A DNA stretch of 64,000 nucleotides from an uncultured Acidobacteriota bacterium (GTDB lineage: Bacteria; Acidobacteriota; Thermoanaerobaculia; Multivoradales; UBA5704): NCBI GenBank assembly GCA_963700145.1, contig OY969474.1:3744001-3808000 (forward strand), written 5' to 3'. How positions within the stretch are numbered: position 1 is the first letter of the stretch; every line of letters starts with the position of its first letter. Under the pieces are notes generated by a model that saw nothing but the letters and a program-made list of their open reading frames with translations, did no database searches and was not told the origin of the DNA. The translations under genes and the position numbers were made by a program. Below, one piece after another: positions 1,839-63,720 of the stretch.

Positions 1839-3630
<1,792 letters not shown>

Positions 3631-5330: not shown

Positions 5331-5343
5331 AGAACCTCCTTGG

Positions 5344-5625: not shown

Positions 5626-5998
5626 CGTTAGATCCTCCTGCGGGCTACGTCGGAGCGGGGAAGGCGCACACTCAGCATTTTGGGCATCTGTGGCGGGCGG
5701 CTTGGCGTACGCGCCTCCTCGCCCTGCGCGACTCCCGAGGCACTACTCCCTAGGACCGACATGCTGCCGATGGCCTCTTCATGGGACCACACGGAGAACT
5801 CAGGTTGGCGGCAGCGCCGCGGTAGTCCTCGGCGAGGCGCACGGGATGCCCATACGCTGTCATTACCGCGCTCAACCTACCAGATGCCTCACCGCGTCGC
5901 AACCCCCTGGGCCTACGGAGGTTGCGATTCTTGATCTTCGCTTGCACGGTCGCGCACGCGCTCGGTGAAGGTCTTGACTCGGGTGTGACGGATCGGGC

Positions 5999-6763
5999 TC
6001 AGGATGCAAGATACGATGCCGCGCGGTCGGCGATCCATAGGAGCTCGCCGTCCTCGGGGCGGATGAGCCGCGCCGGGGTGCGGCTCGGGTCGCCGTCCGG
6101 CGCCCGCGCGGCGCGCAGGGCCGCGGCCTTCGCCGCGCCCGCCACCAGGAAGAGGAAGCAGCGCGCGCGGTTGAAGGCCGGGACCGTCAGCGTCAGCCGC
6201 CAGGCGGCGAGCTTCTCGACCCAGACCGCCGCCGCCAGCCGCTGCCGCTCGGCGAGCACCGCGCTGCCGGGGAAGAGCGACGCGGTGTGGCCGTCCTCGC
6301 CCAGCCCCATGAGCACCAGGTCGAAGCGCGGCGGCTCGCCGGCCGCGAGGCCGAAAACCGCGCGCAACGTCGCCTCGTAGGCCGCCGCTGCCTCCTCGGG
6401 GGGCAGCTCGGTGCGCCAGCGGTGGAGGTTCCCGGGCGGCGCCGGCACCCGCGAGAGCATCGCCTCCCAGCTCATCCCGAAGTTGCTCTCGGGGTGAGCG
6501 GGCGGCACGTAGCGCTCGTCCCCCCAGAAGAATCGCGCCCGCTCCCAGGGGAAGGCGCCGCGCAGCGCGGGCTCCTCGGCCAGCAGCTCGTACAGGCGCC
6601 GCGGCGTGCTGCCGCCCGAGAGCACCCAGGAGAAGGTGCCCCGCGCCGCGACCGCCGCCGCGGCGCGCGCGACGATCTCCCCGGCCGCCGCCCGCGCCGC
6701 CTCCTCGGCGTCGGCGGCGACCCGCAGCGCGCCCGCTACGCCTTCGGCTCCCACATCCGCCAC
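5999..6763 (-). CDS. pgl: 6-phosphogluconolactonase
   Basis: [16 protein letters not shown]...[24 protein letters not shown]; follows zwf; start approximate. Confidence 0.95.
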
Positions 6764-8244
6764 TTCCGGCCGTCGCGGGCCATCAGCTCGTCCGCCTCCG
6801 GCGGCCCCCAGGAGCCGGCGGGGTAGTCGGGGAAGTCGCGCGGCGGCAGCGCCTCCCAGACGTCGAGCACCGGCGTCAGGATGCTCCAGGCCACCTCCAC
6901 CATGTCGGCGCGCTGGAAGAGCGTGCGGTCGCCGGTCATGCAGTCGTAGAGCAGCGTCTCGTAGCCGGTGGCGGGCTCGGTGCCGAAGTAATCCGAGTAG
7001 CAGAACTCCATCTCGACGTTGCCGAGCCGCACCTCGGGGCCGGGGACCTTGGCGCCGAAGCGCAGCGCGATCCCCTCGTCGGGCTGGATGCGGACGACCA
7101 GGAGGTTGGCGCGCAGCCGCTCGACCGAGGTGCCGCGGAAGAGCTCGAAGGGCGCGCGCTTGAACTCGATGGCGATCTCGGTGACGCGGCGGGGGAGGCG
7201 CTTGCCGGTGCGCAGGTAGAAGGGCACGCCGGCCCACCGCCAGTTGTCGATGCCGAGCTTGAGCGCGACGAAGGTCGGTGTCGGCGAGCCCGGCGCCACG
7301 TCCGGCTCCTGCCGGTAGCCGGGCACGGGCTTGCCGTCGATTTCGCCCGGCCCGTACTGGCCGCGCACCGCGCAGTGCAGCACCTCCTGCGGCGCCAGCG
7401 GCGGGATGGCCTTCAGGATCTTCACCTTCTCGTCGCTCACCGCGTCGGCCTCGAAGGAGATCGGCGGCTCCATGGCGGTGATCGAGAGGAGCTGGAAGAG
7501 GTGGTTGGGCACCATGTCGCGCAGCGCCCCGGCCTCCTCGTAGTAGCGGCCGCGCCGCTCGACCCCCAGCTCCTCGGCCACGGTGATCTGCACGTGATCG
7601 ACGTAGCGGCGGTTCCAGATCGGCTCGAAGATGCCGTTGGCGAAGCGGAAGACGAGGAGGTTCTGGACGGTCTCTTTGCCCAGGTAGTGGTCGATGCGGT
7701 AGACCTGCGTCTCGGCCAGCACCTCGCGGATGGCGGCGTTGAGCGCCACGGCGCTGGGGTAGTCGCGGCCGAAGGGCTTCTCGATCACGACTCGCCGCCA
7801 GCCGTCGCGCTCGGCGAGGAGGCCCACCTTGCCCAGCCGCTTGAGGGTGGGGACGAAGAGGCTCGGCGGCACGGCGAGGTAGAAGAGCGCGTTGCCGCCG
7901 GTCTCGTGGGCCGCGTCGAGCTCGCGCAGGCGCTCGGCGACGGCGCGGTAGGTGGCTGCGTCCTCGAGGTCGCCCCGGAGGTGGTGGAGGCGGGCGAGGA
8001 GCCCCTTCCAAGCGTCCTCCTCGACCGGCCCGGCCGCGTGCTCGCGTACCGCGCGGTCCATCTCGGCGCGGTAGGCCTCGTCGGAGAGCTCCTGGCTGCT
8101 TACCGCGAGGACCGCGAAGCGCTCGGCGAGGAGGCGCGCCTCGGCGAGGTTGAGGAGGGCGGGCAGGAGCTTGCGGCGAGTGAGGTCGCCGGTGCCGCCG
8201 AAGATGACCAGGACGCAGGGGTCGGCGGGGCGGGGGGCGTCCAC
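6736..8244 (-). CDS. zwf: Glucose-6-phosphate 1-dehydrogenase
   Basis: [37 protein letters not shown]; GTG start at 8244. Confidence 0.97.
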
Positions 8245-8249
8245 GCGGT

Positions 8250-9257
<1,008 letters not shown>

Positions 9258-9316
9258 CGCGTTGCCAATCTCCTTTGCCATTGCCATTGTAGAATGGCAG
9301 CAAGCGGGAGGCCAAG

Positions 9317-9571
9317 GTGGAGACGACACTAGACAAGTTCGGACGAGTCGTTCTGCCAAAGCAGGTGCGGGACAGCCTCGGGCTCGAGGCTGGCTCAGTC
9401 CTGCGCATCGAGCAGGCTCCCGGGGAGATCCGCCTCACCCCCGTCGAGGAGAAGCCCTCCTTAGTCTGGCGGGATGGTCTACTCGTGTTCGTCGGCGAGA
9501 TCGAGGGGGACCTCGATGACGCGGTTCGGCGGCAGCGCGAAGAGCGCCTGAAAAAGCTCGTCCGGGGCTGA
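9317..9571 (+). CDS. AbrB/MazE/SpoVT-family antitoxin (VapB-like)
   Basis: [21 protein letters not shown] AbrB signature; directly upstream of a PIN gene. Confidence 0.9.
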
Positions 9572-9577
9572 GACGCC

Positions 9578-10012
9578 TTGAAGGTGCTCTTCGACACCTC
9601 GGTGATCGTGGCCGCCCTGGTCGCCGGGCACGTCCACCACGCGCGGGCCTCCGCCTGGCTGCGCCGGGCTCACTCACCCGAGCTGCAGCTCGTCGTGGCG
9701 ACCCACACTCTCGCCGAGCTCTACTCCGTTCTCACCGCACTACCTTCGCGGCCGCGCATCTCGCCGCGAGAAGCCTTCTCTTTGATTCAGGAGAACGTCG
9801 AGCGGCACGCGCGCCTGGTGTCGCTCTCCGAGGCCGACTACACAGCCACCTTGCGTGATCTCGCCGCGCGCTCCTTGGCGGGTGGAGTGGTCTTCGACGC
9901 CCTACTGGTGCGCGCGGCGCGCAACGCGGAAGTGGACCAGCTGCTGACGCTGAACCTGAGCGACTTCCGCAGGATCTGGCCCGAAGGGGAAGGAATCCTG
10001 ATCGAGCCCTGA
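9578..10012 (+). CDS. PIN-domain toxin (VapC-like)
   Basis: [25 protein letters not shown] acidic PIN residues. Confidence 0.92.
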
Positions 10013-10038
10013 AGTCGGGTCCTAGGCTTCAGAGATAG

Positions 10039-10640
10039 CTAGACCAGGATTGCGTCCAGGACGAGTATCACCAACGTCACGACCAAGCAAACAACACCAT
10101 TCCGGATGCATCGGTAGCACCGCCTAGAGTATGTTGCGAACACCAAATTGTACGCTTGGTTGAGTTGAATGGCGTTTAGTATGACGTCCTTCAAAGAGTC
10201 GTTCACCATCACTGCATCACATGGCATTCTCGGCTGGAGGTACAAATCGTACAGCTCCTCCGGCTTGACTATTCGCAGAGCGAACCAAACGGCGCCGAGT
10301 AGATATGGCAAAGGCGCTAGGATTGCCACCCCAAGTATCCACACGGGGATCACGTGGGCGCCGCGACCGAAGAGGCCCGTTGCACCAAGTGTGAACGCAC
10401 TCATAACCGCTACCGAACCAAGAAAGGCTTGGCCTCGCCGATGCATTAGCTCCCTACGATACAGCTCCGACCGTAGCGTTCCTTTAAAGCGTCCTCCGTT
10501 AGTTGGCGGTATTTGGTCCATGAGCTGTCGAGGGGGTCTCCTTGCTCCCACTTTCTCTGTTGCGCGCTGATGCGCGCGCGGACCTGCCGGACAATAGACC
10601 GGTCGACGAAAAAGGGAAGCAACTCGTCAGCGAGCTTCAG
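10039..10640 (-). pseudogene. Membrane protein with about 3 TM segments (Pycsar-effector-like topology), apparently frameshifted near 10476
   Basis: The C-terminal frame has three hydrophobic segments. A second frame overlapping the ATP-grasp stop (LKLADELLPFFVDRSIV...LTEDALKER) joins it with one extra base. Real lesion or sequencing error. Confidence 0.6.
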
Positions 10641-11562
10641 ACGGTTCTCCCAGAAGCTCGTCTACTATGGCTTCGGAAATGCGCCCCTCGAAAACTACGT
10701 CAAGCCAACCCCATTCTCCGGTAGGATTTACCTCAAGGAACAGGTAGTCATTCCGTACGCGCGCCAAATCAATCGCACCATAGCGAAGGCCTAGGCGCCG
10801 CAACAGCGCTAAGCAGCTAGCTTTCAACGCCGGGGTGCCGTTGAACGGACGGAATGCAACCTGTTCCTTTCGTAGTCTCCAATCGCCAATGACCGGCTCA
10901 GCAGTCTCAGCAAAGAAGCACCGCTCTCCGACGACGGTGACTCGAATGTCTGTCTTGGGTTCGACGTTCTGCTGCAGAATGAGCGGCATTTCTCGACAGA
11001 AGGCTTCTGTCAACTGATCTGGTGGAAGTGCCGTGGTGTAGAAGAAGAGATCCTCTCCACCGAGGCGCAGCAAGAATGAGTCCAATGCCTTAACCGCGAT
11101 TCGCTCCGCATTCGCAAGAGAGGTAGGCAGATAGTTCGCGACAGCGGTACGTGGAACCTGGAATCCGAGAGAGTTTGCGACTGCCAGCTGGAAAGGCTTG
11201 CTCTCCGCGGCATAGGTGCTCGTAGGGTGGTTCACCCATCGCGCACGCCGAAAGACAATAAGCGACCGCGCAAAGGCGGCCCATTGGTGCCTACTGAGTA
11301 GCTCCTCTGGAGAGTATCGATGGCCGCTGCTCTCTCTTAGATGGGTTGGAGCGCGGTAGAGAATAGCTCGCGGATCGCGAACTTCGCGCGGCTCCCCGTT
11401 TGCAATTACATGCCTGAGCAGTGGCTGAAGCGGGTCAAGGAGGATTTGGTCTAATGCAAGGAGATCGAGGTCAAGGCGCCAATAAGCAACGTTACGGGAC
11501 CTGAGAACTTCGACCACCGAATCGGTGGCCAAGTCGCGCGAGTTCGTGACCAGTAAGATCAA
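10627..11562 (-). CDS. ATP-grasp ligase, MvdC/MvdD (graspetide synthetase)-like
   Basis: ILLVTNSRDLATD, WVNHP...AESKPFQL, VAVK-like IAVKAL, QQNVEPKTDIRVTVVG, DWR, GAIDL, FLEVNPTGEWGWL. Confidence 0.9.
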   Translation of the reverse strand: MILLVTNSRDLATDSVVEVLRSRNVAYWRLDLDLLALDQILLDPLQPLLRHVIANGEPREVRDPRAILYRAPTHLRESSGHRYSPEELLSRHQWAAFARSLIVFRRARWVNHPTSTYAAESKPFQLAVANSLGFQVPRTAVANYLPTSLANAERIAVKALDSFLLRLGGEDLFFYTTALPPDQLTEAFCREMPLILQQNVEPKTDIRVTVVGERCFFAETAEPVIGDWRLRKEQVAFRPFNGTPALKASCLALLRRLGLRYGAIDLARVRNDYLFLEVNPTGEWGWLDVVFEGRISEAIVDELLGEPSEAR

Positions 11563-11571
11563 TGGAGTGAA

Positions 11572-11772
11572 TCACGGCCCTTTCATGTCTTCTCCTGTCT
11601 CGTGATCGCACTTCTTGGACGCGGGCGGCCGTCGTAGCAGGCCTTGCCCTTCTGCCATAGTGCCAGGCTCCGGCTGCCAAGCACCGATACGCCTGCAATA
11701 GCGCCAGCCTTCCGGCTCAGGATCAGTAGCGTTAGGAAATCTGGCGCTCAGTTCGATTAACAAGTGGCTCAT
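11572..11772 (-). CDS. Putative graspetide (RiPP) precursor peptide
   Basis: 66 aa ORF ending 9 nt before the ATP-grasp start; GGAG RBS; C-terminal core SKKCDHETGEDMKG has Ser/Thr/Lys nucleophiles and Asp/Glu acceptors. Confidence 0.8.
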   Translation of the reverse strand: MSHLLIELSARFPNATDPEPEGWRYCRRIGAWQPEPGTMAEGQGLLRRPPASKKCDHETGEDMKGP

Positions 11773-11784
11773 GGCTGACCGCTC

Positions 11785-11901
11785 CTATTTCCCGAGACTT
11801 CGGTACAGGATCTTAGGACGGGCAAGCATTGTGACGATGCACTCAACTCCGCGCGAGCTCAGTAACTCGATGAACTCTCTCAAGTCTTTCTGCAGACTCA
11901 C
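11785..11901 (-). pseudogene. Truncated nucleotidyltransferase (MNT-like) N-terminus
   Basis: GTG-started MSLQKDLREFIELLSSRGVECIV resembles the N-terminus DLREFIELLNxxxVEYLVVGG, then breaks off into low-GC sequence. Confidence 0.6.
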
Positions 11902-12037
11902 CGAGCGACTCCCGGTACCTGGCGATCAGCTCCAGCAGAAGATCGAGGCGCTGCTGGGGCGTGAGGCTCGCGTAGTACTCCGCGTCGGCGCGGTCGGCCT
12001 CGTCGAAGCCGCGGAAGACCTGTAGAGCTCGCTCCAT
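11843..12037 (-). CDS. Small protein of the type usually preceding an MNT nucleotidyltransferase (TA-like partner)
   Basis: FDEADRADAEYYASLTPQQRL motif; TATAGT 7 nt upstream of ATG. Confidence 0.7.
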   Translation of the reverse strand: MERALQVFRGFDEADRADAEYYASLTPQQRLDLLLELIARYRESLGESAERLERVHRVTELARS

Positions 12038-12055
12038 CGACTGAACTATACGCCG

Positions 12056-13447
12056 TCACTCCCCCTCCGCCCGGATCGGGAACAGCTCCGCCTGCCGCTG
12101 GTCTTGGGGGGAGATGGGGACGCGGTAGTCGCCGGTCCAGCAGGCGGTGCAGTAGCTGTCCTTGGGGCCGGAGACGGCAGCGAGCATGCCGTCGAGCGAC
12201 AAATACCCCAGGCTGTCGGCCTCGATGAACTCGCGGATCCCTTCGACGTCGTGGCTGGCGGCGATCAGCTCGGCGCGGGTGGGGGTGTCGATGCCGTAGC
12301 GGCAGGGCCACTGCGTCGGCGGCGCCGAGATCCGGACGTGCACCTCGGCGGCGCCGGCCTCGCGCACCATGTGCACGATCTTTTTGGACGTCGTGCCGCG
12401 CACGATCGAGTCGTCCACCAGCACCACGCGTTTGCCTGCGATCAGCTCGCGCACCGGGTTGAGCTTGATCTTCACCCCGAAGTTCCGGATCGACTGCTTG
12501 GGCTCGATGAACGTCCGCCCGACGTAGTGGTTGCGGATCAGCCCGAACTCCAGCGGCAGCCCCGACTCGCGGCTGTAGCCGAGGGCGGCGAAGAGGCCGC
12601 TGTCCGGCACCGGCACGACGACGTCCGCCGCCGCCGGTGCCTCGCGCGCCAGCTGCGCCCCCATCTTGAGGCGCGCCTGCGACACCGAGTCGCCGAAGAC
12701 CGTGCTGTCCGGGCGCGCGAAGTAGACGTGCTCGAATATGCAGCGGCTCGCCTCGACCGCCTGGGGCAGGCGGAAGCTCGCCGTCTCCGCGCCGCGCGCC
12801 ACCACCACTTCCCCCGGTTCCAGCTCGCGCACCGGCCGTGCTTCCAGCAGATCGAAGGCGCAGCTCTCCGAGGCGAAGCAGGGCGCGCCGCCGAGGTCGC
12901 CCAGGACCAGCGGCCGGAAGCCGTGCGGGTCGCGCGCCGCGATCAGCCCCTCCTGGGTCGCCAGGAGCAGCGAGTAGGCACCCTGCACCTCGGAGAGCGC
13001 GGTCATGAACGACTCCACGATCTCGAGCCGCGGGCTGCGCGCCATCAGGTGGAGGATCACCTCGGTGTCGCTCGTCGTCTGGAAGATCGAGCCCTCGCGC
13101 TCCAGCCGCCGGCGGATCTCGACCGCGTTCGTCAGGTTGCCGTTGTGGACGATGCCGATCGGCCCCATCGAGGTCTTGACCACGATCGGCTGCGCGTTGG
13201 CGAGGACGCTGGTGCCGGCGGTGGAGTAGCGGGTGTGGCCGATCGCCCGCCGCCCGGGGAGGCGCGCGATGACCTTCTCGCGGAAGATGTCGGCGACGTG
13301 CCCCATGCCGCGCTCGACGTGGAGCTGCGCGCCGTCCCAGGAGACGATGCCCGCGCTCTCCTGGCCGCGGTGCTGGAGCGCGTAGAGGCCCAGGTAGGCG
13401 AGGTTCGCCGCGTCGTCGCTGCCTTCGATGCCGAAGATGCCGCACAT
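12056..13447 (-). CDS. purF: Amidophosphoribosyltransferase
   Basis: MCGIFG, LQHRGQESAG, GHTRYSTAG, VLVDDSIVRGTTS, YCTACW. Confidence 0.98.
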   Translation of the reverse strand: MCGIFGIEGSDDAANLAYLGLYALQHRGQESAGIVSWDGAQLHVERGMGHVADIFREKVIARLPGRRAIGHTRYSTAGTSVLANAQPIVVKTSMGPIGIVHNGNLTNAVEIRRRLEREGSIFQTTSDTEVILHLMARSPRLEIVESFMTALSEVQGAYSLLLATQEGLIAARDPHGFRPLVLGDLGGAPCFASESCAFDLLEARPVRELEPGEVVVARGAETASFRLPQAVEASRCIFEHVYFARPDSTVFGDSVSQARLKMGAQLAREAPAAADVVVPVPDSGLFAALGYSRESGLPLEFGLIRNHYVGRTFIEPKQSIRNFGVKIKLNPVRELIAGKRVVLVDDSIVRGTTSKKIVHMVREAGAAEVHVRISAPPTQWPCRYGIDTPTRAELIAASHDVEGIREFIEADSLGYLSLDGMLAAVSGPKDSYCTACWTGDYRVPISPQDQRQAELFPIRAEGE

Positions 13448-13544
13448 GGCGAGCTCACCAACCCTTCGAAACGGATGATACCCTTCGCGTCATCCCGGCT
13501 CGGCCGTTTGTCGTGTCCAACTCGCGCTCCGAAGGAGGTACCCG

Positions 13545-14183
13545 ATGACTGTCGCTCGCCCCGGCCTCTGGCGTCCGTGCTTCCTGCTCGCCGGTGTCTT
13601 CATCCTGATCGGCGGGCCGCTGCATCCCGGCGGCAGCATGGAGCAGATGATCGGCCACCCCAACTGGGTTCCCTCGCACCTCCTCCAGCTCGCCGGCTTC
13701 CTGGCGCTCGGCGCTGGGCTCGTCCTCCATCGCCGCGCCGTTCCCCTGTCCGAGCGGTCAACCCGCTGGTCGCGCTGGGCCCTGTACGGCACCGCCCTCC
13801 AGGCGTTCGAGATGGTCCTCCACACCGCCTCCTCGGTGGACCACGGCAGGCTGATGGCCGGAGAGGCCACGCCGGTGCTCAGCGCGCACTTGGCGCTCGC
13901 GGTCGTCGCGTACCCGCTCTTCGCGGCGTCGATCGTGGGGTGGATCCTGGCGACCGCCCGCGACCGCGCCTTGGCCTCCCCCTGGGTGGCCTGGCTCGGC
14001 ATCATCGGGGCGGTGGCGCACGGCTTGGCGGCGCCGCTCGTGGTGGCCTTCGGCCTGATGCAGTTCCGCATCCTCTTCCCGATGGTGATGCTGCTGGCGC
14101 TCTGGCTCGTCCTCGCGGCGCTCTGGCCGCGGCGCGCCGTGGCCGGCGCCGGGATCGCGGCGGCGGCGATCGCCGGCACCTAG
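13545..14183 (+). CDS. Integral membrane protein of unknown function
   Basis: About 6 hydrophobic segments; AAGGAGG RBS; sits antisense between purL and purF. Confidence 0.75.
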
Positions 14184-17375: not shown

Positions 17376-18156
17376 AGCTCACCTCCATCCAGGGGGTGGG
17401 ACGGGCCTGACAGGTGATCTCCACCCGGGCGCGGGAGCCGGCGCGCGCCAGCGCCTCCGAGACCACCGCCGCCGCCAGCGCCGGCAGGTTGTTGGTGCGC
17501 GACAGGTGGTAGGGCGCGACCCAGCGCAGGCGGTCGCAGAGCAGCTCCGGCAGGCCGTCCGCGGCGTCGCCGTTCGACAGGTGCCCGTGGCGGCCGGCGA
17601 CGCGCTGCTTGAGCGGCCAGGGGTAGGGGCCGTTGCGCAGCATGTCGAGGTCGTGGTTGGTCTCGAGGAGCAGGACGTCGAGGTCGCGCAGCCTCCCCCA
17701 GGCGAGCTGGCTGCGGGTGCCGAGGTCGGCGACCAGGCCGACGCGGCAGCCGTCGCCGTCCTCGACGACGATGCCGATCGGCTCGCGCGCGTCGTGCGGC
17801 ACGGCGAAGGCCTCCAGCCGGAAGCCGGCGGCCTCGCACGGCTCGCCGGAGCGGATGACGACGACCGGCAGCTCCGGGTCGTCGTCGGGGAGCGGGGCGC
17901 CCTGGAGAGTGCCGGCGGTGGCGTAGACCGGCAGGCCGTGGCGCGCCGCGAAGCGCTCGGCGCCGCGGGCGTGATCGACGTGCTCGTGGGTCAAGACCAG
18001 GGCGTGGAGGTCGGAGCCGGCGAGGCCGACCAGCTCGAGCCGCCGCTCCAGCTCGCGGCAGGAGAAGCCGGCGTCGATCAGGATGCGCCGCCCGCCGCTC
18101 CCTTCGACCACCACGGCGTTGCCGCCGCTCCCCGACCCGAGCACCGCTACACGCAT
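17284..18156 (-). CDS. MBL-fold metallo-hydrolase (YycJ/WalJ-like)
   Basis: LGSGSGGN, IDAGFS, THEHVDH, VPHDA, ETNHD, HGHLSN, HLSRTNN. Confidence 0.9.
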   Translation of the reverse strand: MRVAVLGSGSGGNAVVVEGSGGRRILIDAGFSCRELERRLELVGLAGSDLHALVLTHEHVDHARGAERFAARHGLPVYATAGTLQGAPLPDDDPELPVVVIRSGEPCEAAGFRLEAFAVPHDAREPIGIVVEDGDGCRVGLVADLGTRSQLAWGRLRDLDVLLLETNHDLDMLRNGPYPWPLKQRVAGRHGHLSNGDAADGLPELLCDRLRWVAPYHLSRTNNLPALAAAVVSEALARAGSRARVEITCQARPTPWMEVSFEGTSHGLPAPRDPGPARQGDLQRSLPYWD

Positions 18157-18320
18157 GGCGGGGACGGCAGGTGCCTGGGACGGTGGCGCGTCATGAGAGG
18201 TGGCGCGGGGGGCCTCGCTTCGGAGACGCCAAGGGTAGCACCGGCGGGGCGGGATGTCACTGCACCCCTTGTGGGCGGGGCGGGGCCTGGCCACAAGGGG
18301 TGGTAGACTTCGGTCCGATC

Positions 18321-18740
18321 ATGAGCGCCAAGGACCTCCAGAACTTCCGCTACCTGCTGGGGCAGATCGTCCGCGCCGAGCGCTGGCCGCGGCGGCAGCT
18401 CGAGCGCCGCCTCGGCCTCGGCCACAAGAACCTCGAGAAGCTCCTCGACGGCACGATGGAGACGCGCCTGCGCCACATCCTGGCGGTCGCCGAGTGGCTC
18501 GGCGTCCGCCCGGGCGAGCTCGTCGACCTCGGCTGCCCCGAGACCGCCGCGGCGGCCCGCCGTTCGGTCGCCGACGTGCTGGCGCCGAGCCGCGAGGCCG
18601 TCGAGGCCGGTGTCGCCAAGAAGGGGGCGGCGGCAGCGGGCGGCGACCTGGAGGCGATGATCGCGAAGATCGTGCGCCAGGTCATCGAGCAGCAGGGCCC
18701 GGGGCGAGGCGAGGAACCCCCGGGCGGCGAGCCCGAGTAA
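18321..18740 (+). CDS. XRE-like helix-turn-helix protein
   Basis: RRQLERRLGLGHKNLEKLLDGTMETRLRHILAVAEWLGVRPGEL; TAGACT -10-like box at 18304. Confidence 0.75.
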   Translation: MSAKDLQNFRYLLGQIVRAERWPRRQLERRLGLGHKNLEKLLDGTMETRLRHILAVAEWLGVRPGELVDLGCPETAAAARRSVADVLAPSREAVEAGVAKKGAAAAGGDLEAMIAKIVRQVIEQQGPGRGEEPPGGEPE

Positions 18741-18768
18741 CCTCCCCGCGTCCGCGGGAGAGCGGTCC

Positions 18769-19321
18769 GGTCCGAAAATACTCTGCCCCGGTCCGAAGGG
18801 AACACACCCCGCAGGCTTCCCCAAGGGGGACGGTCCGAAGTTGTGCCGGGGAAGCGGCCGGGGCGGTGGTTTCGGTCCGAAAATCTTCCGATTTGGTCCG
18901 ATTTTGTGCCGCCCACGGCCCACGGGCGGCTTCTCTCGCGTCCGAAACCCTTGCCCCGGCGCCAAGATCGCTGTCGGCGGTCCTGAGTTGGGACGGCACA
19001 GTCCGATTCCCTGAAGATTCGGTCCGAAGATAGGACATTTTGGTCCAATTCTCTATCGCTTAGGGTACTCGGACTCCCTCGGCTGTCTCGTTTTGGTGCT
19101 TTCTGGTCCGAAGTTGTTCCCAGCGAGGACCAGGGGTGCCTTAGACGCCGCCACGAGCGAGTGGCGTGGTCCGAAAGTGGGCCTACTCTGTCCGAAGACA
19201 GGGCAAAGCGGTCCGAAGATCGGGCAGTCAACCGTCGGGGATCTGAAATTCGGTCCGAAAACTCTCCACCCTACCGCTCGGCGAGCTTCAACCGGTCCTA
19301 AGTGAGTCCTATCCGGTCTCG
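18769..19321. repeat. Degenerate 21-bp-period array with conserved GGTCCGA core
   Basis: Exact GGTCCGA at 18769, 18790, 18832, 18874, 18895, 19021, 19105, 19168, 19210, 19252; near matches at 18979, 19000, 19042, 19189, 19294; all offsets are multiples of 21. Confidence 0.9.
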
Positions 19322-19376
19322 TGAGAAACCGCACAGCCGGTCCGTCTATGCTTGAGAAAGACACTAGGGAGACACC

Positions 19377-20867
19377 ATGCCCAATGACGACACCGTGCGG
19401 TTCGCCGGTTTTCCGACGGCCTTCGTACACGAGACACCGAAGGGAAAGAAGATCCAGCAGCTCCTCTGGGGTGACTTCCTCCGGCTCCTGGGCGGCAAGG
19501 AGGGCGAGTGGGTCGAGGTGCGGGCGCGGGGGCAGAATGGCTGGATGCGGGAGGAGGATCTCCAAGAGGAGCGACTCCTCGAAGTGAACTTCGTGGACAT
19601 CGGCCAGGGGGACGGCTGCTTCATTGTCACGCCCGACGATCGTTTCCTGGTGATCGACGCAGGCGAGTCGGACAACATGTACCGGTTCCTCCGCTGGCGG
19701 TTCAACCTGCGCGCCCATCCCGACCAGGAGGTCGCCTGCGACACGGCCATCGTCACCCACCCCGATGCGGACCATTACAAGGGGTTCCAGCAGCTCTTCG
19801 ACTCGCCCCTCCTCCGCTTCGACGCCGTGTACCACAACGGCCTCGTCGAGCGGGTCGGCGACGACGTCCTAGGCGCCAAGAAGAAGGAGGGAAAGCTCTC
19901 ATACATGACGGAGCTGGTACCTGACCAAACTGCCCTCGACGCCATCATCGGCGACCCGGCCCTGGTGGGAAAGAAGCTCTATCCGCGTCTCTTGCGGACG
20001 GCCGCGACGAGCGGGCGGGTCGGACCCATCCGCTCCCTTTCGGTCGGCGACGAGTTTCTGCCGGGTTACGACGGCAGCGACGGAAGTGGACTGTCTTTTC
20101 GCGTTCTCGCTCCTGTCCCGGAAGTCGTGGACGGCAAGCCCGCGCTCCGCTGGTTGGGGGACGTGGGCAAGACGAAGAACGGCCATTCGGTCGTTCTCCT
20201 GCTGCGCTACCGCGACGTGCGGATTCTCCTCGGCGGCGATCTCAATATTCCGGCGGAGAACTACCTGCTGGCGCACTACACGGGACTGGATCCCGAGACA
20301 GACGACCCTGTCGAGCGCGAGGAGCTGGTTGCGAAGGCGCGGGAGGTTTTCGAAGCCGACGTCGCCAAGGCCTGCCACCACGGCAGTGCCGACTTCAACT
20401 CGCTCTACCTACGGGCGGTCAACCCGCTGGCTACTGTGATCTCGAGTGGCGACGGCGAGCCGCACTGCCATCCGCGGCCCGACGCCCTAGGCACTTTCGG
20501 CAAGCACGGCCGGGGCGACCGGCCCCTGATCTTCTCGACGGAGCTGGCACGTTCGAGCAAGGAGACCATCAAGGAACCCAACCGGGTGCGTGCCGAGATT
20601 CGCGCCCTCATGGAGAAGCGGGACCTGGAGGAGGACATCGACAAGCGCGCCGCGCTCCAGGAGAAGATCAACGAGAAGCTCGGCGTCCTCGAGCGCAGCG
20701 TCGCCGTCTACGGCATGATCAACGTGCGCACCGACGGCCGCGAGGTCCTGCTGGCCCAGAGGCTCGAGGAGCCGCGCTCCGGCACCGGTGAACGTTGGGA
20801 CGTACACGCCCTCACGCGCGACCCGCAGACCGGCGAGCTGCGCTATCGCTCCAAGCACGAGGGCTGA
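19377..20867 (+). CDS. ComEC/Rec2-like MBL-fold hydrolase with N-terminal SH3-like domain
   Basis: FVDIGQGDG, IDAG, THPDADHYKG, N.HSVV, LLGGDL, KACHHGS, VISSG...HCHP; N-terminal WVEVRARGQNGWM. Confidence 0.85.
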   Translation: MPNDDTVRFAGFPTAFVHETPKGKKIQQLLWGDFLRLLGGKEGEWVEVRARGQNGWMREEDLQEERLLEVNFVDIGQGDGCFIVTPDDRFLVIDAGESDNMYRFLRWRFNLRAHPDQEVACDTAIVTHPDADHYKGFQQLFDSPLLRFDAVYHNGLVERVGDDVLGAKKKEGKLSYMTELVPDQTALDAIIGDPALVGKKLYPRLLRTAATSGRVGPIRSLSVGDEFLPGYDGSDGSGLSFRVLAPVPEVVDGKPALRWLGDVGKTKNGHSVVLLLRYRDVRILLGGDLNIPAENYLLAHYTGLDPETDDPVEREELVAKAREVFEADVAKACHHGSADFNSLYLRAVNPLATVISSGDGEPHCHPRPDALGTFGKHGRGDRPLIFSTELARSSKETIKEPNRVRAEIRALMEKRDLEEDIDKRAALQEKINEKLGVLERSVAVYGMINVRTDGREVLLAQRLEEPRSGTGERWDVHALTRDPQTGELRYRSKHEG

Positions 20868-20911
20868 GATGGCCGACTCCGGGCTCGCGAAGGCGTGCCG
20901 CCGAGAGCTAG

Positions 20912-22181
20912 CAGGCCGCTGAGAAACGGCCTTCAACGGCGGGTGCGAGGCTGACAGCGATCTGGGAGCGGGCGATGTCGCGTGCGCGGGTGGAAGGGGA
21001 GGGCAACAGGCGCCTTGTGGGCGCGTTTGAGCGCCGCTGGTTTTGCTGGGCAGGACCTTTTTGGGCTATGCCGGCACGAGCAGGCGACTTAATCGGAGCA
21101 GGTTGTACGCTGCGGCGGCGAGGCGGGCGGCCAGCTGCGTCCTCGCCACGCCTCGGACCCTGGTCCGGTGCAGCCCTGCGCAGGTCTTGAGCCAGCCGAA
21201 GATCGTCTCGATTCGCCGCCGTACGACCTGACTGATCCGGTAGCCGGGACGGCGCGTTGTTCGCCGGTCGATTGCCGAGCGCCTGCGCCGGTGGGCATTC
21301 TGGGTGACGTGGGGGGTGACGCCGAGCTCTCGGCAGGCAGCCACGAAGCCCTTGGTGTCGTAGCTCTTATCGGCGCCCACCGTCTTGCGCCGCGAGCCTT
21401 CGAGCCGCGCGAGCAGACCCAGAGCTTCGCGACGCTCGGCGAACCCATCGGCCTGGGCCACCACGAAGTCCACCAACAATCCGTTGCGGTTCTCCATCAG
21501 AGCGTGGCCGGAAAACGAGAGCTTCGCCTCGTGCCCATCCCCCTTGCGGGCCAGGCGCGCTTCCGGGTCGGTCGTCGAGGCGTGCGTCTCGTTGCTCCGC
21601 TTCGTCCCCGTGAAATCGCTCCAGCCGTTGGCGTCTCCGCCCGGTGGCCCGTCCTTGGGCCGGAAGCTCTTCATCGACGCCCAGGCCTCGATCAGCGTCC
21701 CATCCACCGAGAAGTGCTCGCTCGACAGCAGCCGCTGCACGCTCGCCTCAGCCACGATCGCCGCCAAAAACCGCTCGGCCACCTCGTGCCGGATCAGCCG
21801 CTCCCGGTTGCGTGAAAACGTGCTCGCGTCAAACGACGGCTCGTCGAGCTCCAGATCCAAAAACCAGCGAAACAGCAGGTTGTACTCGAGCTGCTCGCAA
21901 AACTGCCGGTCGCTCCGCACCGAAAACAGCGCGATCAGCAGCTGCGCCTTGAGCAGCCGCTCCGGCGGCACCGACGGCCGCCCCGTCTCGGCGTACATCA
22001 CCGCAAACACCTCACTCAACTGCCCGAGAGCCCGGTCGGCCAGCCCCTTGATCCGCCGGATCGGATGCGCCGCCGGAATCCGCTCCTCCAACGACCCCAC
22101 CATCAACAACGTCCTCTGCTCGCGCGCTTTCCCTCGCATGGCCTGCAAGGGTAGCGCGAACCGGGGTTTTTCAGCAGCCTG
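20912..22181 (-). mobile_element. IS5-family insertion sequence, complete
   Basis: Imperfect TIRs CAGGCCGCTGAGAAAC / CAGGCTGCTGAAAAAC; CTAG direct repeats at 20908-20911 and 22182-22185. Confidence 0.92.
21066..22140 (-). CDS. IS5-family DDE transposase
   Basis: GRPSVPPERLLKA, YNLLFRWF, FSVDGTLIEAWAS, GADKSYD, RRRIETIFGWLK. Confidence 0.95.
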
Positions 22182-22314
22182 CTAGAGCTCGGTCCGTTTT
22201 CAAGGCTCCCAACTTTGCCCGCAACTTCCGGATAGCTCGCTGAATGGTCGCCACGTAATCTTCCGAGCGTGTGGCGCGCTGGTCAACGGACATGCCGCAC
22301 CCGAGGAGGACCGC

Positions 22315-22791
22315 ATGACTTCGTTCCGTGTCGTCGCCATCGATACTTCCATCGCCGAGTCGGTCCGCAGCACGCTGCGGTCGCCGCGGTACGGGCACCC
22401 GGCTCATACCGAGATCGCGACGGGGTACGGGCCCTGCCGGCACTGCCTGCGCACCTTCCGTGTCGGCGCCGAGGCGCGCATCCTGTTCACGTACGACCCT
22501 TTCGAGGGCGTGGAAAAGCTGCCGCTGCCGGGACCGGTCTTCGTGCACGCCGAGGCGTGCGAGCGCTACCCCGAGGACAGCGGCTTCCCCGGCGATCTGC
22601 GGCCGCACGCGCTGACGCTCAACGCCTACGCCCGCGGCCGCCGGCTACGGGCGCAGGAGTACGTGGCGGACGGCGAGGTGGATGCCGCTCTCGAGCGGCT
22701 CCTCGCCCGGCCCGAGATCGACTACGTCCACGTCCGCGACACCGCGGCGGGCTGCTACGACCTGCGCGTGCAGCGCGCGAGCGCGAGCTAA
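22315..22791 (+). CDS. DUF1203 family protein
   Basis: PCRHCL, GPVFVHAEAC, YVHVRDTAAGCY. Confidence 0.85.
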   Translation: MTSFRVVAIDTSIAESVRSTLRSPRYGHPAHTEIATGYGPCRHCLRTFRVGAEARILFTYDPFEGVEKLPLPGPVFVHAEACERYPEDSGFPGDLRPHALTLNAYARGRRLRAQEYVADGEVDAALERLLARPEIDYVHVRDTAAGCYDLRVQRASAS

Positions 22792-22799
22792 GTCCTCCC

Positions 22800-23144
22800 C
22801 TAGAGGGGCAGGAAGAGCAGCGAATCGACGAAGTCCTCCGGCTCTCCTGCGTTCGCTACCAGCTCCAGTCCCTCCACGCAGCGGCCGATCGGCAGCTTCT
22901 GTGAGGCGTAAATCACCCCGGTAAAGCGCACGCCGACGCGCTGTCGTCGCCGGGCTTCGATGACCAGATCTCTGTCGGTCGAGAACAGGACTCGGCCCAG
23001 CGACGTTGCCCTGTCGAGCAGCTCAGAGTCGCTCAACCGGTGCGCCCGGTCCTCGAAAGCGGTGAGTAGATCGACCCCGCGGAGCCGGAGGCCCTGGGTC
23101 ACGGCGCGGTTGACGTTGTGATTGAAGTAGAGGCTGACCGGCAA
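22800..23144 (-). CDS. DUF5615 PIN-like toxin
   Basis: YFNHNV...LRLRGVDLLT, SDSELL, GRVLFSTDRDL; downstream of a DUF433 gene. Confidence 0.82.
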   Translation of the reverse strand: MPVSLYFNHNVNRAVTQGLRLRGVDLLTAFEDRAHRLSDSELLDRATSLGRVLFSTDRDLVIEARRRQRVGVRFTGVIYASQKLPIGRCVEGLELVANAGEPEDFVDSLLFLPL

Positions 23145-23146
23145 GG

Positions 23147-23464
23147 TCAGATCTGCCCCTGCGCTCGCAGCTTGCCGATGAGAGGGTGTTCTCCGACTTC
23201 GCGCCGGATCTCTTCGACCTGTGCCTCACGCCGCTCGAGGTTCGCCTCGATCTCTTCCTGGTGGTCCCAGTAGTACGCGAGCGCCGAATGCACCTGCCCT
23301 AGCGTCAGGTGCGGATGCTGGTACGCCAGCTCCTCGGGGCTCCAGCCGTGCACCTGGACCTCCTCGACGAGCTCGAACACCTTGGTGTTGGCGCCCTCGA
23401 TCCAGGCAACCCCCTCTTCGTCCAAGACGATGTGCTCGTACGTTGTGCGCGTGGCGGCGATCAT
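23147..23464 (-). CDS. DUF433 antitoxin
   Basis: IEGANTKV...GWSPEEL...HLTLGQVHSALAYY. Confidence 0.88.
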   Translation of the reverse strand: MIAATRTTYEHIVLDEEGVAWIEGANTKVFELVEEVQVHGWSPEELAYQHPHLTLGQVHSALAYYWDHQEEIEANLERREAQVEEIRREVGEHPLIGKLRAQGQI

Positions 23465-23484
23465 GACGCGATCTCAACCGGATC

Positions 23485-24030
23485 TTACCTCTCCAGCCGG
23501 TACGCCCCCCCGTCCTTGGCGACGTCGAAGTCCCCCGAGCGCCCGCGCGGGATCGACAGCGACCGCCAGCCCGCGCCCGCGAAGTGCTTGGCCAAAAAGA
23601 CGATCTGGCCGACGTGGTAGGCGTAGTGGGAGAGCTGGCGCTGGATGGCTTCGACGACGGTGTGGGGCTCGCCGCGGATGGTGACGGAGCGGTCCAGATC
23701 CTCGGGGGCGAGCGCGGCGATGGCGTCGAGGGTGACCGTCCAGCCTTCGTCCCAGCGCCGGCCGACGCTCGCGCGCGTCTCGTCGGGCTCGTCCTCGAAC
23801 TCCAGGTCGCGCCCGCGCCAGGGCTTTTCGCCGTCGCTGGTCAGGAAGTCGGTCCAGCGCGAGCGCATGTTGCCGGCCATGTGCTTGACGACCAGCGCGA
23901 TGCTGTTGGCCTCCGGGTCGAGGCGGCGGAAGAGCGCCGCGTCGTCCACCTGCGCCATCGCCGCCTCGCCCAGCCCCTTGAGCTTGCGGAGCTGGCGCAG
24001 GACGTCGTCGAGGTAGTGCTTACCGTCCAT
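23485..24030 (-). CDS. DUF1572 / DinB-superfamily protein
   Basis: NSIALVVKHMAGNMRSRWTDFLTSDGEK, HYAYHVGQIV; GGAGG RBS before ATG 24030. Confidence 0.88.
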   Translation of the reverse strand: MDGKHYLDDVLRQLRKLKGLGEAAMAQVDDAALFRRLDPEANSIALVVKHMAGNMRSRWTDFLTSDGEKPWRGRDLEFEDEPDETRASVGRRWDEGWTVTLDAIAALAPEDLDRSVTIRGEPHTVVEAIQRQLSHYAYHVGQIVFLAKHFAGAGWRSLSIPRGRSGDFDVAKDGGAYRLER

Positions 24031-63458: not shown

Positions 63459-63535
<77 letters not shown>

Positions 63536-63575: not shown

Positions 63576-63720
63576 GGGGAAGAGGGGTCCGCTTCCTCGC
63601 CTTCAGAAGCGACCGCCCGCGCCCTGACCAAGGAGAAGCTGGAGCTCGCGGCGGCCCTGGAGAAGGTGGCGTAACGCCCGCGTTCCACCTGCGATGCCTT
63701 CCGGCGCCCCTCCAATGGCA

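What the first reader, a model, noticed from the sequence alone, without database searches (positions are those of the whole stretch)
18304..20867. Strictly 21-bp-phased GGTCCGA array between an XRE-HTH gene and an SH3-MBL hydrolase
Seen: in about 550 bp of intergenic DNA, 10 exact and 5 near-exact GGTCCGA heptamers all fall on one 21-nt register from 18769 to 19294. The 14 nt between them are unrelated to each other, and phase is held across empty slots (gaps of 42, 63, 84). One more copy lies between the -10 box and ATG of the HTH gene (18312), and a GC hairpin (18742-18760) precedes the array. 21 bp is two helical turns, so the motifs lie on one DNA face. Inference: (a) a binding lattice for the HTH protein with autoregulation; (b) a repeat-spacer RNA with short constant handles, possibly processed or used by the downstream MBL-fold enzyme; or (c) a decayed heptad-repeat ORF. 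It is not CRISPR and matches no element I can name.
Basis: partly seen in the sequence, partly recalled or inferred. Interest (0 to 1): 0.78.

Follow-up and report, generated by a model that had tools for sequence, protein, structure and literature searches.

The report
Phased operator-like array beside XRE regulator
A 550-base non-coding stretch carries about fifteen copies of one 9-base word, each spaced by exact multiples of two DNA turns and conserved in a related genome, so it most likely works as a docking lattice for the small regulator gene next to it.

Summary
All 9 exact GGTCCGAA copies in the 64-kb window lie in 18769-19259. 13 of 14 GTCC[G/A]A copies share one 21-nt register (P <= 2e-15).

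The stretch is not coding: GC by codon position is flat, and no array ORF is in the protein collection. It matches no Rfam family and folds no better than shuffles.

A metagenomic ORF call (P0135) runs through the orthologous array of a relative.
- Motif codons are identical in 35 of 37 cases; other codons in 42 of 93 (p = 4e-8).
- One empty slot is missing as exactly 21 nt.
- A +1 shift and a -1 shift cancel out.

P0135 ends antisense to the HTH C-terminus, so HTH-array adjacency is conserved. Two of two plasmid SH3-MBL homologues lack an array, and HTH and MBL mostly lie on different contigs. One further copy (TTCGGTCCGAT) sits just before the HTH start codon.

Best reading: a phased lattice of direct-repeat operators for the neighbouring Cro/C1-type regulator. 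It works like the P2 C repressor (8-bp direct repeats two turns apart) but on a far larger scale. Binding is inferred, not shown. The RNA-handle and MBL-substrate readings are weakly supported. The decayed-ORF reading is rejected.

The parts
18321..18740 (+). Cro/C1 (XRE)-type HTH gene, 139 aa. The HTH is N-terminal, followed by a linker and a short C-terminal helix. It is the proposed binder of the motif.
   Evidence: Pfam HTH_26, E = 5.9e-6, residues 24-69. The exact protein is in the collection as a 139-aa record. There are 11 homologues at 67-97% identity, and the first ~87 residues are almost invariant. Codon-position GC is 0.80/0.48/0.96.
18309..18319 (+). Promoter-proximal motif copy TTCGGTCCGAT, ending 1 nt before the ATG. 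It follows a possible -10 (TAGACT, 18304-18309). Proposed auto-operator.
   Evidence: Sequence read. Outside the array only 2 other plus-strand GGTCCGA copies occur in 63 kb. The chance of one in the 60 nt before the ATG is 0.002 (either strand 0.007). Its promoter role is inferred; one search found no consensus promoter.
18742..18762 (+). GC-rich hairpin just after the HTH stop codon, with no U-tract.
   Evidence: Paired in both the minimum-energy and the centroid fold. The terminator scan did not call it.
18766..19311 (+). The array: 26 slots of 21 nt, 15 of them occupied by nnC-GGTCCGAA-R, all in one orientation. GGTCCGA starts: 18769, 18790, 18832, 18874, 18895, 18979*, 19000*, 19042*, 19021, 19105, 19168, 19189*, 19210, 19252, 19294* (* = one mismatch).
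   Evidence: counts, register, per-position conservation. Not coding. Conserved slot by slot in the relative's ORF P0135.
18939..18946 (+). The one out-of-register copy (CGTCCGAA, phase +2). It lies in a 19-nt inverted repeat with 18857-18875.
   Evidence: In the relative this copy is degenerate and lies 1 nt closer to slot 14.
18908..18930 (.). GC-rich palindrome (7-bp arms) filling an empty slot after a type-B unit.
   Evidence: Sequence; paired in the folds.
19149..19166 (.). GC-rich palindrome (6-bp arms, 6-nt centre) filling an empty slot.
   Evidence: Sequence; paired in the folds.
19377..20867 (+). SH3 + ComEC-type MBL-fold hydrolase gene, 83 nt after the last motif copy. It is a neighbour and a possible regulated target, not a conserved partner of the array.
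   Evidence: Pfam Lactamase_B 1.1e-10. ComEC MBL domains are the best PDB and NCBIfam matches. More than 3000 homologues were found. 2 of 2 plasmid homologues lack an array.

Best explanation
The 550-bp stretch is a lattice of protein-binding sites on double-stranded DNA. About fifteen head-to-tail copies of an asymmetric 9-bp word (C-GGTCCGAA-R) are spaced by whole multiples of 21 bp. That is two turns of B-DNA, so every copy faces the same side of the helix.

The most likely binder is the 139-aa Cro/C1-type HTH protein encoded immediately upstream.
- One recognition helix would read one word.
- Neighbouring protomers, or dimers using one helix specifically as proposed for P2 C, would touch each other along one face. 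They would load cooperatively into a filament or wrapped complex.
- The extra copy between the putative -10 and the HTH start codon would give negative autoregulation.
- The last copies, which run to within 83 nt of the next gene, would repress or insulate whatever lies downstream. Here that is a horizontally acquired SH3-MBL nuclease gene.

Shown: the phased array, its non-coding nature, selection on the word rather than the spacers, preservation of the register, conserved HTH-array adjacency in one relative, and the promoter copy.

Inferred: that the constraint acts on DNA rather than RNA, that the neighbouring HTH is the binder, that binding is cooperative, and the regulatory outcome.
For: 1. 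Register. 13 of 14 copies share one of 21 phases (P <= 1.8e-15). The period is 21.0 nt, two helical turns (established B-DNA geometry).

2. Selection on the word. In the orthologous array read through ORF P0135 of a relative, motif codons are identical in 35 of 37 cases and other codons in 42 of 93 (Fisher p = 3.9e-8). Of the 14 occupied slots compared (26 to 3; slot 28 was left out of the count), all keep the word or a near copy. All 6 empty slots compared stay empty.

3. Register kept through indels.
- The relative lacks exactly one empty slot: 21 nt between slots 6 and 4, against 42 nt here.
- It has 64 nt instead of 63 between slots 22 and 19, and 60 instead of 61 between slot 14 and the off-register copy.
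- Slot 22 to slot 8 is therefore 294 nt in both genomes.

4. Link to the HTH.
- P0135 ends antisense to the HTH C-terminus, so the adjacency is conserved.
- A copy lies at 18309-18319, directly before the HTH ATG (chance 0.002-0.007).
- The HTH domain is nearly invariant among 11 homologues.

5. Not tied to the MBL gene.

6. Not coding, no known RNA family, and no excess RNA structure.

7. Precedent. P2 C, a Cro/C1-type HTH repressor, binds 8-bp non-palindromic direct repeats 22 bp centre to centre, cooperatively (PMC2995052, passages read). BldC forms head-to-tail multimers on variable numbers of 9-bp direct repeats (PMC5859096, passages read).
Against: - No binding data exist. The AF2 model of the HTH was too poor to use (mean pLDDT 45.3).
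- A profile of the HTH matched no solved structure (best E = 0.55). No homology to P2 C or any characterised direct-repeat binder is shown.
- The comparison rests on one relative, seen only as a protein translation. Its +1/-1 shifts could be assembly errors. Adjacency at this divergence could be plain synteny.
- In the relative, 5 of the 14 copies compared (slots 19 to 13) sit 1 nt off the main register, so the phase is not absolutely strict.
- All copies are on the HTH-gene strand and start 29 nt after its stop codon. This also fits a 3'-UTR or RNA reading.
- Fifteen sites are far more than any simple operator needs, and I cannot say what the surplus is for.
- The only look-alike from the genome scan (L041) has a 31%-identical XRE gene 1.3 kb away, but that gene's own promoter carries a different inverted repeat and no GGTCCGA.
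- The source genome outside this window, and all metagenome contigs, could not be examined.
Confidence: 0.45

Rival explanations
1. The array is a DNA-binding lattice, but for some other protein encoded elsewhere (a nucleoid-associated protein, a global regulator, or a segregation or anchoring factor). The neighbouring HTH gene is merely syntenic.
For: Everything that argues for DNA-level, face-of-helix constraint applies. No direct evidence ties the HTH to the word beyond one promoter copy. The core CGGTCCG is a 7-bp palindrome, which suits a symmetric dimer of any family.
Against: The promoter-proximal copy lies in front of the HTH gene itself (chance 0.002-0.007). Exact GGTCCGAA occurs nowhere else in 64 kb, which is unlike a global factor's sites. 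No ParA/ParM/TubZ-type or Rep gene was seen among the neighbours scanned.
Confidence: 0.2
2. The constraint acts on RNA. The array is transcribed, either as the HTH 3'-UTR, as its own transcript, or as the 5' leader of the next gene. The GGUCCGAAR words would be handles for an RNA-binding protein or nuclease: a sponge, a phased processing substrate, or an antitoxin-like RNA.
For: All copies are on the strand of both flanking genes, and the array begins 29 nt after the HTH stop. The downstream gene is an MBL-fold nuclease-type enzyme. In some units GUCC can pair with a downstream GGRC, with one compensatory-looking change (my reading of the sequences).
Against: - There is no Rfam match at E <= 1 apart from one chance-level miRNA hit.
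- Fold z-scores are -1.18 and -0.71.
- The word is not consistently unpaired or paired.
- An exact 21-nt register has a natural reason on B-DNA but none known for bacterial RNA.
- The MBL family does not carry such arrays (2 of 2 plasmid homologues).
- The repeats are 9 nt, not the near-identical 34-36-nt units that I recall for ToxI-type antitoxin RNAs.
Confidence: 0.15
3. The array is a decaying 21-nt minisatellite with no function. The word survives by chance, by biased repair, or through recent homogenisation.
For: A second 21-nt tandem array lies in the same window (63720-63960). Many genomes carry 21-nt tandem arrays that contain this word. Sub-types among the spacers point to an origin by duplication.
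Against: Decay or homogenisation acts on whole units. Here 9 of 21 positions are near-invariant while the rest are near-random within the array. The same split is seen between two genomes (35/37 against 42/93). The register is kept despite heavy spacer divergence.
Confidence: 0.07
4. The array is, or recently was, a protein-coding heptad repeat (GPK, VRK, SDR or FGP every 7 residues, depending on frame).
For: 21 is a multiple of 3. Several frames are nearly open, with 1-2 stops in 210 codons. The look-alike in L041 can be read as AAVRKxx heptads with an ATGA start overlap.
Against: - Codon-position GC is flat (0.60/0.615/0.615) against GC3 of 0.85-0.96 in real genes.
- The wobble bases of the word are invariant.
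- 0 of 6 array ORFs are in the protein collection.
- No Pfam hit and no homologues of the L041 ORF.
- In the relative the word changes reading frame twice within one ORF call.
Confidence: 0.02

Closest known systems
P2 C immunity repressor and its direct-repeat operator (P2-like coliphages)
   Same: A small Cro/C1-type HTH protein. Its operator consists of 8-bp non-palindromic direct repeats 22 bp centre to centre, two helical turns apart, with cooperative occupancy and DNA bending (PMC2995052, passages read). Here there is a 9-bp asymmetric word at 21-bp multiples beside a Cro/C1-type gene.
   Different: P2 C uses two half-sites that span one promoter. Here there are about 15 sites over 550 bp, downstream of the regulator gene, plus a single copy at its promoter. 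No sequence similarity to any solved structure was detected. The context is chromosomal and not phage-like.
Plasmid and phage iteron arrays (origin and copy-control loci; named from memory: P1, F, RK2, R6K)
   Same: Direct repeats in one orientation at a pitch of about two helical turns. They are bound by monomers of one protein, and some arrays act as titration or handcuffing sites (recalled, not read here).
   Different: As I recall, iterons conserve 17-22 bp per unit; here only 9 bp are conserved. No Rep initiator gene is nearby. No DnaA box lies near the array: the only 2 matches with <= 1 mismatch are at 8681 and 10335. The setting is chromosomal.
Partition centromeres bound by small adaptor proteins (pCXC100 ParB with nine 9-nt direct repeats; tubC-TubR)
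   Same: Arrays of short direct repeats next to the gene of a small DNA-binding protein. That protein loads cooperatively into a higher-order complex and also represses its own operon (PMC3074162 and PMC6009700, passages read).
   Different: Those repeats are contiguous or arranged in blocks at 9-12-bp pitch, lie upstream of the operon, and come with a ParA or TubZ motor gene. No such gene was seen among the neighbours scanned. The binder there is RHH or winged HTH.
BldC-type head-to-tail multimers on direct repeats; mycobacteriophage stoperators
   Same: Asymmetric sites read by single protomers in a fixed orientation. BldC sites vary in the number of repeats (PMC5859096, passages read). Stoperator repressors are monomeric and bind many asymmetric sites (PMC9283540, abstract only).
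   Different: BldC repeats are adjacent 9-bp units, at most a few per site. Stoperators are scattered over a phage genome and are not phased. Both use different protein families.

Membership tests
CRISPR array | Near-identical repeats of roughly 23-55 nt separated by spacers of similar size (recalled definition) | tested here: not met
   Only 9 nt are conserved per 21-nt unit.
CRISPR array | cas genes nearby | tested here: not met
   No Cas family appeared among the Pfam hits of 26 neighbouring ORFs or the PADLOC hits of 5.
P2 C-type direct-repeat operator | Regulator is a Cro/C1-type HTH protein | tested here: met
   Pfam HTH_26, E = 5.9e-6.
P2 C-type direct-repeat operator | 8-bp non-palindromic direct repeats about two helical turns apart | tested here: met
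   GGTCCGAA(R) in one orientation at multiples of 21 bp.
P2 C-type direct-repeat operator | Two half-sites flanking the -10 or -35 of the repressed promoter | tested here: not met
   Only one copy lies at the HTH promoter region (18309-18319). The array lies downstream of the gene.
P2 C-type direct-repeat operator | Sequence or structural homology to P2 C | tested here: not met
   A profile of 12 HTH sequences had no PDB match below E = 0.55. The AF2 model was too poor for a fold search.
P2 C-type direct-repeat operator | Cooperative binding of the protein to the repeats | not testable with these tools
   Needs EMSA or footprinting.
Iteron replication or copy-control array | Direct repeats phased at about two helical turns | tested here: met
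   21-bp register.
Iteron replication or copy-control array | Adjacent Rep initiator gene | tested here: not met
   Neighbours are pur genes, an MBL-fold gene, the HTH, the SH3-MBL gene, an IS5-type transposase, DUF1203 and a DUF5615/DUF433 pair.
Iteron replication or copy-control array | DnaA boxes and an AT-rich unwinding element | tested here: not met
   No DnaA-box match with <= 1 mismatch lies within 8 kb. The lowest GC in the array is 0.565.
Partition centromere (parC, tubC, pCXC100 type) | Array of short direct repeats beside the gene of a small DNA-binding adaptor | tested here: inconclusive
   The arrangement is present, but at 21-bp pitch and downstream of the gene.
Partition centromere (parC, tubC, pCXC100 type) | Partner NTPase gene (ParA, ParM or TubZ) in the same locus | tested here: not met
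   None among the scanned neighbours.
Type III toxin-antitoxin RNA (ToxI-like) | Tandem near-identical repeats of about 34-36 nt, followed by a ToxN- or AbiQ-type endoribonuclease gene (recalled definition) | tested here: not met
   Only 9 nt per unit are conserved. The downstream gene is an MBL-fold hydrolase. 2 of 2 plasmid homologues of it lack arrays.
Csr/Rsm-type sponge RNA | Many GGA motifs presented in hairpin loops; Rfam family match | tested here: not met
   No Rfam match. No consistent loop presentation on either strand.
Protein-coding heptad repeat | Codon-position composition bias and an intact frame | tested here: not met
   GC is 0.60/0.615/0.615 by position. Every plus-strand frame and the minus frames have stops. 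0 of 6 array ORFs are in the collection.

The most novel reading that the evidence does not exclude
The XRE protein and its 26-slot array form a dedicated chromosomal nucleoprotein organelle. This would be a segrosome-like filament or wrapped complex that assembles on one face of 550 bp of DNA and is conserved in a Thermoanaerobaculia-like lineage. Its job would not be simple gene repression. It could be a barrier or insulator at the edge of a variable region, a titration device that makes the regulator's response switch-like, or an anchoring site. A second 21-bp array with a palindromic 15-bp core in the same 64 kb hints that such phased lattices are a recurrent design in this genome.
Probability: 0.2. 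Interest if true: 0.8.

Novelty: new variant of a known kind. Interest (0 to 1): 0.6.

Why it matters
Bacterial regulators normally use one to a few operators. Long, strictly phased arrays are known mainly from plasmid origins and centromeres.

This chromosomal array has 15 face-aligned sites, is kept under selection, and is paired with a tiny HTH protein. It has no motor or initiator gene nearby. It would therefore extend direct-repeat recognition of the P2 C type to a filament-scale assembly.

It would also give a simple two-part system for studying cooperative loading, helical-phase dependence and roadblock or insulator function. The lineage is uncultured and almost unstudied.

The finding also shows that spurious ORF calls in metagenomes can be mined as proxies for orthologous non-coding DNA.

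Tried and rejected
- The hits were single chance matches, ordinary whole-unit tandem repeats (7-, 14-, 21-, 42-nt) or coding repeats.
- They are therefore no evidence about gene association. Only L041 resembles this array.

2. L041 AS A SECOND EXAMPLE.
- It has 6 GTCCGA copies in one 21-nt register, with units like our type A. It also has the only HTH homologue in 1.13 Mb of fetched loci (31% identity over 77 aa, E = 4e-5).
- Against it: GC is 0.77, the array is interleaved with a second unit type, 4 of 6 frames are open, it can be read as AAVRKxx, and the HTH gene's promoter carries a different inverted repeat.
- It is left as an unresolved lead.

3. OTHER COLLECTIONS. The array and the HTH found nothing in the plasmid collection, and the HTH found nothing in the phage collection.

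4. RNA READING. Rfam at E <= 1 and at gathering scores, folds of both strands and per-position unpaired probabilities showed nothing beyond chance.

5. CODING READING. Pfam on five array translations, a homologue search with the L041 ORF and an exact look-up of 6 array ORFs all came back empty.

6. HTH STRUCTURE. The AF2 model from a 12-sequence alignment had mean pLDDT 45.3, so no fold search was run. A PDB profile search found nothing. The Atlas gave only generic HTH_3/HTH_26 clusters.

7. DEFENCE-SYSTEM READING OF THE MBL GENE. PADLOC and NCBIfam hits cover only the metal-binding motif region (residues 68-157) and fall far below family cut-offs.

8. OTHER CHECKS.
- Origin or terminus reading: there is no GC-skew turn and no DnaA box.
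- Motif as IS end: the IS5-type element has unrelated 27-nt inverted repeats.
- A literature search for the 8-mer found only primers.
- Two searches for a described phased XRE or centromere-like array found none. These two searches do not establish that none is in print.

9. NOT RUN. The complex-prediction job for HTH self-association was not run. With so shallow an alignment, a pass or a fail would hardly have moved the odds.


Full report
WHAT IS THERE

Between the stop codon of a small HTH gene (18321-18740, +) and the start of an SH3-MBL hydrolase gene (19377-20867, +) lie 636 nt without a credible gene.

I stacked the sequence in 21-nt slots from 18766. That gives 26 slots, of which 15 carry the word GGTCCGA or a one-mismatch version. 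All are on the plus strand.

The conserved word is nnC-GGTCCGAA-R:
- G5, T6, C7 and C8 are 15/15.
- A10 is 14/15 and G4 is 13/15.
- G9 and A11 are 12/15, and C3 is 11/15.
- The base after the word is A or G in every exact copy.

All 9 exact GGTCCGAA copies of the 64-kb window, on either strand, lie in 18769-19259. 13 of 14 GTCC[G/A]A copies in the gap share one phase modulo 21 (P <= 1.8e-15). The odd one, at 18940, is shifted by 2 nt.

Four amendments apply:
- The spacers are not wholly unrelated. They fall into three sub-types...AAAAYCT.C...AAGTTGTGCC and ...AAGAYMGGRCA. Unit position 19 is C in 13/15 copies. Mean spacer identity is 3.6 of 10 against 2.6 expected.
- Several empty slots hold GC-rich palindromes (18908-18930, 19149-19166).
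- TTCGG-T-CCGAA is itself palindromic, but only some units have the left arm.
- The '-10 box' is a guess.

WHAT IT IS NOT

It is not coding.
- GC by codon position is flat (0.60/0.615/0.615). The flanking genes have GC3 of 0.85-0.96 and GC2 of 0.41-0.52.
- Every frame has stops.
- None of 6 candidate ORFs from the array is in the 15-billion-protein collection, although both flanking proteins are.
- No array translation hits Pfam.

It shows no sign of being a known or strongly structured RNA.
- Rfam finds nothing in 17500-21500 at E <= 1 except one chance-level miRNA hit. At gathering scores it finds only the tRNA-Met at 63459.
- Fold energies are ordinary: z = -1.18 for the plus strand and -0.71 for the minus strand.
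- The word is not consistently looped or paired.

It is not CRISPR, because only 9 nt are conserved and there are no cas genes.

It does not look like a replication origin or a centromere. Neighbouring genes are purF/L/Q/S, an MBL-fold gene, the HTH, the SH3-MBL gene, an IS5-type element (inverted repeats 20901-20927 and 22166-22192), DUF1203, a DUF5615/DUF433 pair, DinB-like genes and an ABC ATPase. No DnaA box lies near.

RELATIVES

- Nearly all hits were single chance matches, ordinary tandem repeats in which the whole unit is conserved, or coding repeats.
- It therefore says little about gene association.

One locus, L041 (a Thermoanaerobaculia MAG), looks similar.
- It has six GTCCGA copies in one 21-nt register with empty slots.
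- Its units resemble our type A.
- It holds the only HTH homologue in the 1.13 Mb of fetched DNA (31% identity over 77 aa, E = 4e-5), 1.3 kb away.
- Against it: GC is 0.77, it is interleaved with another unit type, it can be read as Ala-rich heptads, and its HTH promoter carries a different inverted repeat.
- I leave it as a lead.

The decisive comparison came from an unexpected source. I searched 1.84 billion representative proteins with the 157-aa minus-strand translation of the array. That returned P0135 (E = 3e-8), a 336-aa singleton from a 21,092-nt ENA contig.

P0135 is a spurious ORF call that runs through the orthologous array of a relative. It ends antisense to the C-terminus of the HTH gene. 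In it the word reads as [F/L]RT or as SD, depending on frame.

I aligned 20 slots, compared as 14 occupied and 6 empty:
- All 14 occupied slots compared (26 to 3) keep the word or a near copy.
- The empty slots stay empty.
- Motif codons are identical in 35 of 37 cases. All other codons are identical in 42 of 93 (Fisher p = 3.9e-8).
- Codons only partly inside the word were left out of the count.

The spacing is also informative:
- The relative lacks exactly one empty slot: 21 nt between slots 6 and 4, against 42 nt here.
- It has 64 nt instead of 63 between slots 22 and 19.
- It has 60 nt instead of 61 between slot 14 and the off-register copy.
- Slot 22 to slot 8 is therefore 294 nt in both genomes.

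So the word, not the spacer, is under purifying selection. The register is restored after small shifts, and whole units can be lost.

Caveats: this is one relative, seen only as a translation. The +1/-1 shifts could be assembly errors. In the relative, 5 of the 14 copies compared (slots 19 to 13) sit 1 nt off the main register.

WHICH GENE DOES THE ARRAY BELONG TO?

The HTH protein has only 11 homologues (67-97% identity), all from uncultured sources. The N-terminal 87 residues are almost invariant.

The SH3-MBL protein belongs to a very large family. More than 3000 proteins score E <= 1e-10, and identity is 55-60% across phyla. It has a ComEC-type MBL domain.

Two of two plasmid homologues have ordinary protein genes about 80 nt upstream and no array.

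I matched 'longest contig' lengths between the two hit lists:
- Only one contig (11,551 nt) holds both an HTH homologue and a close MBL homologue.
- HTH contigs of 590,626, 520,136 and 31,051 nt have no MBL among the 120 best hits.
- A 176,076-nt MBL contig has no HTH.

The N-terminal third of P0135 shows no convincing similarity to the antisense of our MBL gene. A diverged or mis-called homologue there cannot be excluded.

GC falls from about 0.75 to 0.57-0.67 from the array through 23.5 kb, and an IS sits right after the MBL gene. This suggests the downstream genes are accessory.

In the one relative seen, the array again lies beside the HTH gene. In contrast, the HTH and MBL genes are mostly found on different contigs, and the two plasmid MBL homologues examined have no array.

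A further copy, TTCGGTCCGAT, lies at 18309-18319, immediately before the HTH ATG. Given the background density, the chance of that is 0.002 for the same strand and 0.007 for either strand.

MECHANISM

Three features point to a constraint on double-stranded DNA, namely a protein that reads one word per two turns on one face of the helix:
- A period of 21.0 bp is two turns of B-DNA.
- All copies share one orientation.
- The register is preserved through indels.

The neighbouring Cro/C1-type protein is the obvious candidate, with the promoter copy giving autoregulation.

The closest documented mechanism is the P2 C repressor. It is a Cro/C1-type HTH dimer whose operator is two 8-bp non-palindromic direct repeats 22 bp centre to centre. 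Occupancy is cooperative, the DNA bends, and in the authors' model one helix of each dimer reads the repeat (PMC2995052, passages read).

Other precedents:
- BldC shows that small HTH proteins can polymerise head to tail on variable numbers of 9-bp direct repeats (PMC5859096, passages).
- Centromere adaptors such as pCXC100 ParB and TubR show cooperative loading on repeat arrays combined with autorepression (PMC3074162, PMC6009700, passages).

Against membership in any of these families:
- There is no sequence match to solved structures.
- There is no usable model.
- No motor or Rep gene is nearby.
- The array is far larger than an operator and lies downstream of the regulator gene.

I therefore say it works like a P2 C-type direct-repeat operator expanded into a lattice. 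I do not say it is a member of that family.

What the lattice achieves (repression or insulation of the variable downstream region, titration, or a structural role) is inference only.

VERDICT

The feature is real, statistically overwhelming, non-coding and evolutionarily constrained. The lattice reading has confidence 0.45 for the HTH as binder, and about 0.65 for some DNA-binding protein (the best explanation plus the first rival). The RNA reading is about 0.15, neutral decay about 0.07 and coding about 0.02.

It is a new variant of a known kind (phased direct-repeat binding arrays). It is unusual in scale and setting, and it is cheap to test.

UNCHECKED

- The rest of the source genome was not examined.
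- All metagenome and viral contigs were closed collections.
- No nucleotide sequence of any relative's array was available.
- Transcription of the array is unknown.

Noticed in passing
window 63720-63960 (runs towards the window end at 64000): A second 21-nt-period array: about 11.7 units of a 15-nt core (5-bp inverted arms around a 5-nt centre) plus 6 variable nt, with a 63-nt super-period. It lies about 185 nt after tRNA-Met (63459-63535). All six frames are open. It looks like tandem palindromic operators on one DNA face. Its neighbour beyond 64000 is unseen.
   Followed up: partly
window 20901-22192: An IS5-type insertion sequence (DUF772 + DDE transposase, 21066-22148, minus strand) with 27-nt inverted repeats that are 85% complementary. 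It is inserted 34 nt after the SH3-MBL stop codon. Its ends are unrelated to the GGTCCGAA word.
   Followed up: yes
window 18760-23500: GC is 0.57-0.69 here, against 0.72-0.78 in the pur-gene flank. The stretch holds the array, the SH3-MBL gene, the IS, DUF1203 (22315-22791) and a DUF5615/DUF433 pair (22800-23464, probably toxin-antitoxin). It looks like a variable or acquired region.
   Followed up: partly
L035, L038, L045, L053, L055, L065, L107, L119 (Acidobacteriota MAGs): Intergenic arrays of tandem heptamers (GTCCGAR alternating with GTCTGAR). They often occur as two inverted blocks flanking a short central segment, so they could form very long hairpins. They recur in many Terriglobia-type genomes. 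I do not know of a description.
   Followed up: no
L041 7874-8062: A Thermoanaerobaculia MAG has GTCCGA copies in a 21-nt register between a pterin-4a-carbinolamine dehydratase gene and an unknown gene. An XRE HTH gene 31% identical to ours lies 1.3 kb away. It may be a distant counterpart or a coincidence.
   Followed up: partly
L015 7990-8230 and L095 (Magnetococcales MAGs): Perfect 21-nt tandem repeats containing the same word lie in what reads like a coding linker (7-residue repeats) in two related genomes. This is an example of how the same 8-mer arises in unrelated repeat types.
   Followed up: no
window 19377-20867: The SH3-MBL protein family is very large and keeps 55-60% identity across distant phyla. 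Its neighbours differ in each of the contexts seen. This suggests a mobile, strongly constrained ComEC-type nuclease of unknown role.
   Followed up: partly
window 2000-8000 and 8000-14000: Two further stretches have mean GC of about 0.63-0.65 in a 0.72-0.75 genome. Few ORFs there passed my codon-bias filter between 3840 and 7375. They were not examined.
   Followed up: no
window 18768-18774 and the other units: The core CGGTCCG of most units is a 7-bp palindrome. As I recall, it equals the recognition sequence of the restriction enzyme RsrII. Every copy has T, not A, at the centre on the plus strand, so the site is used asymmetrically.
   Followed up: no
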